A DNA stretch of 64,000 bases from Eledone cirrhosa. Lineage: Eukaryota. This document shows, piece after piece, positions 40,288 through 40,368 of the stretch (position 1 is the stretch's first letter; the number at the start of each line of letters is the position of its first letter). The notes under the pieces are model-generated. The model was not told the origin of the DNA. It saw only the letters and a program-made list of their open reading frames with translations, and did no database searches. The stretch lies in assembly GCA_964016885.1 (NCBI GenBank), contig OZ024754.1:9238001-9302000 (forward strand), given 5' to 3'. Made by a program: the position numbers and the translations under genes.

Positions 40288-40368
40288 GCCTTCTGACGAT
40301 GATCTCTTTCTCAATGGAAATCCGCTTGGATTGTGTATTTGTTTGGGATCTGAAACCGCGGTAAAGGC
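40288..40368 (+). ncRNA. Type-I hammerhead ribozyme motif (Penelope-like, palindromic stem III)
   Basis: GCCUU CUGACGA U GAUCUC..GGGAUC U GAAA CCGCGG UA AAGGC; predicted cleavage after GUA at 40363. Confidence 0.8.

What the first reader, a model, noticed from the sequence alone, without database searches (positions are those of the whole stretch)
40288..40368. Clean minimal type-I hammerhead ribozyme with a palindromic stem III
Seen: stem I GCCUU/AAGGC, core CUGACGA, stem II GAUCUC/GGGAUC with a ~38-nt loop, GAAA, stem III A-CCGCGG-U (self-complementary), and cleavage triplet GUA (after 40363). Known: Penelope-like retroelements carry minimal type-I hammerheads whose palindromic stem III is completed by dimerisation. 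Unusual: a U.U opposition replaces the canonical 10.1-11.1 R:Y pair. Inference: a self-cleaving RNA in repeat DNA that could cut a host pre-mRNA if transcribed.
Basis: partly seen in the sequence, partly recalled or inferred. Interest (0 to 1): 0.75.

Follow-up and report, generated by a model that had tools for sequence, protein, structure and literature searches.

The report
Hammerhead ribozyme in Penelope-type mobile repeat
This is a real hammerhead-ribozyme motif in a lone, truncated copy of a 482-base non-coding repeat with hundreds of copies that is likely moved by Penelope-type jumping genes; its odd U-U mismatch is already published for such elements, and it is predicted to cut only in pairs, so this copy is likely inert.

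Summary
The motif is exactly as described and is not chance (0 of 200 shuffled windows). It lies in a 271-bp truncated piece of a 482-bp non-coding repeat with at least 236 core-intact copies. Stems covary between subfamilies. Copies show Penelope-type anatomy: 275 of 346 segments end at two fixed points, mostly in (TA)n, and 103 of 209 loci are head-to-head pairs. No ORF was found joined to the unit. The U·U opposition is not special: 14 of 26 published Hydra-clade hammerhead rows have it (PMC8557442 File S2), and here the position varies freely among subfamilies. Folding predicts a double hammerhead only for two copies together. This copy is alone in 64 kb, no host exon was found, and insertion 5' ends do not pile up at the cut site, so cutting of a host pre-mRNA is unsupported. 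Cleavage is untested. The scan has noted similar elements before, in this genome and in others. Verdict: new member of a known kind (non-LTR retrozyme / non-autonomous Penelope-like element); low interest.

The parts
40175..40445 (+). 5'-truncated copy (271 bp; unit positions 294-482 plus 1-83, counted from the predicted cut) of a 482-bp non-coding repeat unit; ends at the nearer of the family's two fixed 3' ends
40288..40292 (+). Hammerhead stem I, 5' strand
40293..40299 (+). Catalytic core C3-A9
   Evidence: intact in 85 of 100 listed copies when left free in the pattern (counted by eye)
40300..40300 (+). U at position 10.1 (variable among subfamilies: U, G, A, C)
40301..40350 (+). Stem II (6 bp) with 38-nt loop II that holds a small inner hairpin
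40351..40351 (+). U at position 11.1 (variable: U, G, A, C)
40352..40363 (+). G12-A15.1, 8-nt palindrome (predicted intermolecular stem III, 40355-40362) and A17; predicted cut after 40363
   Evidence: GAAA intact in 94 of 100 listed copies when left free (counted by eye)
40364..40368 (+). Hammerhead stem I, 3' strand
40280..40286 (+). Purine tract complementary to loop II 40307-40313: possible pseudoknot / tertiary contact, not supported by covariation
   Evidence: 82% of cells paired, 2 cells with a change on both sides; outer pair broken in 74 of 112 rows
40441..40458 (.). (TA)n tract at the 3' junction, the family's usual target
40010..40178 (.). Different, far more abundant fold-back repeat, cut off in its right arm and joined to the unit by a 4-nt microhomology (40175-40178)

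Best explanation
The motif is a type-I hammerhead with a palindromic stem III, carried by a lone truncated copy of a 482-bp non-coding repeat that is likely a non-autonomous Penelope-like element (non-LTR retrozyme type), likely copied into (TA)n tracts by a Penelope-type, probably Hydra-clade, reverse transcriptase-endonuclease. SHOWN: the motif, the multi-copy family, tandem and head-to-head arrangement, two fixed 3' ends at (TA)n, scattered 5' ends, pair-preserving subfamily changes in the stems, a freely varying 10.1/11.1 position, no ORF joined to the unit in the loci seen. INFERRED: master loci with tandem units are transcribed; two ribozymes pair through their palindromes into a double hammerhead that would cut slowly, probably with protein help, after GUA to give unit-length (perhaps circular) RNA; the enzyme nicks (TA)n and starts reverse transcription at two internal sites 83 and 195 nt past the cut, which gives the two-armed insertions. 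The window copy is a single truncated insertion product without a partner and is likely inert.
For: Family: 2522 candidates, 45 scored matches; 236 exact core-pattern matches against 0 for the reversed control; 258, 311 and 222 matches with other short patterns against 0, 2 and 1. Unit 482 bp in natural tandems. 275 of 346 segments end at +76..90 (145) or +186..200 (130), 245 of these 275 run into (TA)n against 7 of the other 71; 103 of 209 loci hold a head-to-head pair, and of 104 pairs 64 combine one short and one long end, 3 have two ends of one class, 37 have an irregular end. This fits the published PLE 'tail' and the two internal RT start sites (PMC11167929; PMC8557442). Stems 91% paired in 112 distinct rows; first stem II pair G-C 87, A-U 14, G·U 5; a stem I pair U-A 72, U·G 35. 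On a tree built without core and stems the A-U pair sits in one clade (17 of 20 tips, support 0.89) and again inside the separate A·G clade, i.e. two origins. Shared variants (8% or more) at 0 of 13 core, 0 of 6 palindrome and 3 of 22 stem columns, all three pair-preserving, against 93 of 401 columns elsewhere and 9 of 38 in loop II. U·U in 14 of 26 Hydra rows. A young Hydra-like PLE in the same genome (713-aa ORF, 129 scored matches at 96-100% identity) has a hammerhead-like motif with U·U and the same short-end/long-end design, 19 and 15 of 42 tails.
Against: Cleavage and transcription are not shown. Insertion 5' ends do not mark the cut: 2 of 275 lie within 3 nt of the near site and 2 within 3 nt of the far site, and 29 run through both, so templates were mostly uncut or religated. 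Only 2 of 4 natural tandems that could be folded predict palindrome-palindrome pairing, and only 1 the full double hammerhead. Covariation rests on few events: number of covarying pairs 4 against 4.3 in shuffles; cells 28 against 20.7 (4 of 500). Core conservation is inflated because many loci were found by core patterns. The Hydra link is indirect: only four short weak DNA matches (E 6e-4 to 6e-3) and no protein match to that ORF among 95 unit-length copies, and a Neptune-like RT+GIY-YIG family here has a hammerhead with similar stem I and III letters. One of nine Xenopus retrozyme dimers cleaved in vitro (bioRxiv 2026.07.22.740005).
Confidence: 0.75

Rival explanations
1. The unit is the pseudo-LTR of an autonomous Penelope-like element whose ORF-bearing copies were not sampled; the short copies are its truncations.
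For: Most genomic PLE hammerheads sit in truncated copies (PMC4209133); the genome has over 10,000 GIY-YIG candidates; only about 209 loci were read, mostly on three contigs.
Against: Beyond the long 3' end the sequence runs into the next unit, not an ORF; 95 segments are a unit or longer and the longest 951 bp; only 5 loci have PLE protein within 150 bp, from different families and at irregular junctions; none of 35 GIY-YIG loci matches the unit.
Confidence: 0.12
2. The hammerhead fold is kept as a structural or protein-binding element of the template RNA, and self-cleavage is not needed for spreading.
For: 5' ends ignore the cut site; in the anole PLE, catalytic mutants did not affect insertion in vitro and no RNA-seq ends mapped to the cut (PMC11167929); six different 10.1/11.1 combinations each spread.
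Against: No subfamily-level change in any catalytic core column (with the core left free show only scattered changes), which is what selection on catalysis predicts.
Confidence: 0.09
3. This particular copy cuts a host pre-mRNA in which it lies.
For: Core, stems and palindrome are intact in this copy; stems I and II are predicted in a 181-nt context; trans dimers with other copies are conceivable.
Against: Single copy in 64 kb; stem III probability 0 as monomer; with the upstream fold-back repeat included, stems I and II fall to 0.01; no host exon among 72 of 79 candidate frames scanned (the hits were an RT fragment, a zinc-finger fragment that looks like a LINE 3' end, and a sub-threshold DUF); minimal monomers inactive in vitro.
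Confidence: 0.03
4. Chance match in repeat DNA.
For: Rfam is silent; folding z-score 0.07.
Against: 0 of 200 resampled windows; 236 against 0 genome matches; pair-preserving subfamily changes.
Confidence: 0.01

Closest known systems
Hammerheads of Hydra-clade Penelope-like elements (Craig et al. 2021, PMC8557442; passages, supplement passages and part 2 of 59 of the supplement with File S2 seen)
   Same: Type I; U...U flanking stem II in 14 of 26 rows; short palindromic stem III; short stem I; (TA)n insertion preference; tandem/inverted insertions with an optional tail.
   Different: No ORF here; loop II is 38 nt against 3-10 nt in those rows; the 10.1/11.1 position varies within this one family; the two 3' ends are 112 nt apart against a 30-40 bp tail.
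Animal non-LTR retrozymes (Cervera and de la Pena 2020, PMC7229834, passages; Li et al. bioRxiv 10.64898/2026.07.22.740005, parts 1-3 of 5, supplements closed)
   Same: Non-coding unit of a few hundred bases, low GC (35%), one type-I hammerhead per unit, tandem copies, coexistence with PLEs.
   Different: Classical retrozymes carry canonical hammerheads with loop-loop contacts and form long arrays and abundant circles; here arrays are under two units, dispersed and two-armed, the ribozyme is of the PLE type, and no RNA was seen.
Minimal hammerheads of metazoan PLEs (Cervera and de la Pena 2014, PMC4209133; parts 1-3 of 4 and part 2 of 3 of supplement file 2 seen; file 1 not searchable)
   Same: Extra nucleotide after A9, G...C closing a long helix II, short helix I, palindromic helix III, dimer-dependent weak cleavage.
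   Different: A further nucleotide lies between C and G12, absent from their consensus (one GAAA entry of their alignment reads AGAAA); stem III palindrome is longer (8 nt).
Natural U10.1·U11.1 hammerhead variants (Perreault et al. 2011, PMC3088659, passages)
   Same: Stem II opening with a U·U mismatch, stated to be the best tolerated mispair.
   Different: A rare core variant there; here the commonest of several states in a mobile repeat family.

Membership tests
Type-I hammerhead ribozyme | Core C3-A9, G12-A15.1, U16.1-H17 in type-I order with three helices | tested here: met
   helix III only between two copies
Type-I hammerhead ribozyme | Base pair at 10.1-11.1 | tested here: not met
   U·U here; unpaired in 69 of 112 rows; a published tolerated variant
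Type-I hammerhead ribozyme | Covariation of helices | tested here: met
   one compensatory pair with two origins and one wobble change; few events
Type-I hammerhead ribozyme | Tertiary contact between stem I flank and loop II | tested here: inconclusive
   6-7 bp complementarity without covariation
Type-I hammerhead ribozyme | Match to an Rfam hammerhead model | tested here: not met
Type-I hammerhead ribozyme | Site-specific self-cleavage | not testable with these tools
   indirect test (5' ends at the cut site) negative
Autonomous Penelope-like element | RT plus GIY-YIG ORF between pseudo-LTRs | tested here: not met
   sample of about 209 loci, not the whole genome
Penelope-like mobilisation (non-autonomous) | Partial tandems, inverted 5'-truncated partner, fixed 3' ends with optional tail, (TA)n targets | tested here: met
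Penelope-like mobilisation (non-autonomous) | Sequence homology to the termini of an identified autonomous partner | tested here: inconclusive
   only short weak matches to the Hydra-like element; shared design and an AT-rich end motif by eye
Non-LTR retrozyme | Non-coding tandem unit with a type-I hammerhead in each unit | tested here: met
   some loci hold two complete ribozymes in tandem
Non-LTR retrozyme | Canonical, efficiently cleaving hammerhead and abundant circular RNA | not testable with these tools
   needs RNA data and assay

The most novel reading that the evidence does not exclude
This family is a natural mutational scan of the hammerhead's most conserved stem II pair: U·U, G·U, A·G, U·G, C·A and U·A subfamilies all spread while the catalytic core stayed fixed, so dimeric, protein-assisted PLE hammerheads would not need a 10.1-11.1 pair at all; standard descriptors would then miss a large class of retrozymes, and the asymmetric two-armed insertions (one short end, one long end) would record a Hydra-type enzyme dimer priming twice on one uncut or circularised RNA.
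Probability: 0.3. Interest if true: 0.45.

Novelty: new member of a known kind. Interest (0 to 1): 0.22.

Why it matters
As a single locus it matters little: it is one dead copy of a known kind of ribozyme-bearing mobile repeat. As a family it offers a ready panel for an open question, what hammerheads do for Penelope-like elements (stated as unclear in PMC8557442): natural 10.1/11.1 variants to assay side by side, and several hundred insertion junctions which say that reverse transcription starts at two fixed sites and reads through the predicted cut.

Tried and rejected
Rfam, gathering and E-value modes: no hammerhead. Sequencing runs: no RNA holder listed; three contig sets of one sample were laid, which show only that the family is present and that the flanking repeats are about 100-fold deeper; no evidence on expression. 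Search for an autonomous parent: 35 GIY-YIG loci, 30 Hydra-like loci and flanks of the unit's copies gave no contiguous ORF. Pile-up of 5' ends at the cut: absent; a rise in stops in the 40 nt upstream of the far site (15 of 30 against 13 of 43 and 17 of 60 in the two bins before) is too weak to use. Repeats within one insertion are about as diverged (92.8%) as the best match elsewhere (94.5%), 49 segments: does not separate circular from tandem templates. Flank/loop II pseudoknot: no covariation. Junction partners: one locus (L028) has the unit inside a Hydra-like tail, L179 and L120 are joined to PLE ORFs; template switching and plain insertion fit equally, and many other hits are shared flanking repeats, so not used as proof. 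Zinc-finger frame at 28303-28740 considered as host exon and rejected as a probable LINE 3' end (family assignment recalled). Lunse et al. on dimeric PLE hammerheads was not held; I saw only a review's account, and it may already describe this variant. Literature searches found no description of this family; one search returned nothing relevant.

Full report
Observation. My descriptor finds only this hit in the window, and 0 of 200 resampled windows give one at the same stringency. Rfam does not recognise it. Alone, the motif forms stems I and II but not III; two copies co-fold into a strand-swapped double hammerhead, 9.5 kcal/mol below two monomers.

What it belongs to. The window comes from a 3.0-Gb, repeat-rich animal genome (probably an octopod, my inference from its repeats and from the by-eye likeness of one ORF to Hydra-1_Obim, not tested). 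The motif lies in a dispersed family: 2522 candidates and 45 scored matches, 236 exact core-pattern matches against 0 for the control. Natural tandems define a 482-bp unit, 35% GC, with no consistent ORF (median longest ATG frame 45 aa in 95 unit-length segments). The window holds 271 bp of it (40175-40445), joined at its 5' end by a 4-nt microhomology to a different fold-back repeat and ending in (TA)n. It is the only copy in 64 kb.

Anatomy of insertions. Among 346 segments at 209 loci (duplicates removed by flank identity; loci chosen by similarity or motif, mostly on three contigs), 145 end about 83 nt and 130 about 195 nt past the predicted cut; 245 of these 275 run into (TA)n, against 7 of the other 71. 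5' ends are scattered. 103 loci hold a head-to-head pair; of 104 pairs, 64 join a short and a long end, 3 have like ends and 37 an irregular end. Partial tandems, inverted truncated partners, an optional tail and microsatellite targets are the published signature of Penelope-like elements (PMC8557442 passages), and two internal RT start sites explain the tail in the anole element (PMC11167929 parts 1-2 of 4). No RT or GIY-YIG ORF is regularly joined to the unit, so I read it as non-autonomous.

Is the ribozyme under selection? From 144 full hits (21 partial hits dropped, 129 after removing duplicates, 4 unparsed) I aligned 113 of 125, leaving out 12 with deletions or truncations. Stems are 91% paired; the first stem II pair is G-C in 87, A-U in 14 and G·U in 5; one stem I pair is U-A in 72 and U·G in 35. 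The shuffle control is exceeded for cells with a double change (4 of 500) but not for the number of such pairs (354 of 500). A tree made without core and stems puts the A-U pair in one clade (17 of 20 tips, support 0.89) and once more in the A·G clade (111 segments long enough). Shared variants fall on 93 of 401 columns outside the ribozyme, 9 of 38 in loop II, 3 of 22 stem columns (all pair-preserving) and none of 19 core and palindrome columns. Because many loci were found by core patterns I repeated the search with the core left free: 85 of 100 listed keep CUGANGA and 94 of 100 keep GAAA, the rest scattered single changes (counted by eye on the first 100 of 311 and 222). 117 of 231 parsed copies keep core and palindrome whole.

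The U·U. It is not a defect of this copy and not new. In 231 parsed copies the position is U·U 97, G·U 73, A·G 21, U·G 15, C·A 10, U·A 6, other 9, and the states follow clades. File S2 of PMC8557442 lists U...U flanking stem II in 14 of 26 Hydra-clade rows. PMC3088659 reports natural U10.1·U11.1 hammerheads, calls it the best tolerated mispair, and notes that its pipeline rejected such hits. Other families in this genome show U·U or A·A too.

Likely mobiliser. A young Hydra-like element (713-aa ORF, 86,242 candidates, 129 scored at 96-100%) has a hammerhead-like motif with U·U and the same two-end design at (TA)n. The link is by design only: homology with the unit is limited to four short weak matches, and a Neptune-like family has similar stem I and III letters.

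Mechanism and doubts. Most likely, tandem master transcripts form a double hammerhead that cuts weakly, perhaps with protein help as for the anole element, and the RNA is copied from two internal sites into (TA)n. Against a simple picture: only 4 of 275 5' ends lie within 3 nt of either cut site and 29 segments cross both; 2 of 4 foldable natural tandems predict palindrome pairing (two more could not be parsed). Templates were therefore mostly uncut or religated, as also seen in the anole system. For the window's copy there is no partner, no evidence of a host gene (72 of 79 frames scanned) and an unfavourable predicted fold when the upstream repeat is included; cutting of a host transcript is unlikely.

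Comparison and verdict. It works like a PLE-type dimeric hammerhead in a retrozyme-like unit (PMC4209133 parts 1-3 of 4 and supplement part; PMC7229834 passages; bioRxiv 2026.07.22.740005 parts 1-3 of 5, supplements closed; PMC6765202 and PMC11300833 passages). It fails membership of autonomous PLEs (no ORF) and is unproven as a classical retrozyme (no RNA). Six literature searches found no description of this family, but the Lunse et al. paper was not available. Earlier notes of this scan describe similar elements here and in other genomes; they gave me the Hydra lead and the idea of testing insertion ends, both then checked here. New member of a known kind; interest 0.22.

Noticed in passing
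window 40010-40178: Very abundant fold-back repeat with two-armed, (TA)n-flanked insertions; its minus-strand arm reads like the 3' half of a hammerhead (GAAA, 3-4 bp stem III with 9-nt loop, GUC) without a 5' core in the copies seen.
   Followed up: partly
window 40376-40381: Conserved GTAAGT 13 nt after the predicted cut, a possible splice donor; PLE terminal repeats are known to hold introns.
   Followed up: no
window 40460-40810; also 24325-24382, 38176-38239, 59955-60018, 62136-62193: tRNA-derived SINE-like repeats (Rfam tRNA hits).
   Followed up: no
window 1296-19095: 53-bp satellite of about 338 copies, 95% matches.
   Followed up: no
window 28303-28740 (+) and 49010-49879 (-): C2H2 zinc-finger fragment and RT/PHD fragment, both probably LINE remnants.
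   Followed up: partly
L186-L215, about 950 bp after the ORF end: Young Hydra-like PLE whose hammerhead-like motif has A in place of U4, a 3-bp stem II with U·U and a longer, non-palindromic stem III; escapes standard descriptors.
   Followed up: partly
L078 6947, L079 2652, L080 5403, L081 5303, L085 358: Neptune-like RT+GIY-YIG family with a U3-A8 hammerhead and 6-nt palindromic stem III about 1.0-1.4 kb after the ORF.
   Followed up: partly
L076 7268 and 7779; L094 242; L071 25 / L095 2558: Other hammerhead families with U·U or A·A at 10.1/11.1, one as a 511-bp tandem.
   Followed up: no
L028 1482-2061: A 581-bp piece of the unit sits inside a Hydra-like tail on the same strand, the 5' junction falling in loop II of both ribozymes.
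   Followed up: partly
L170-L175: Six nearly identical copies within about 0.9 Mb of one contig, probably spread by segmental duplication.
   Followed up: no
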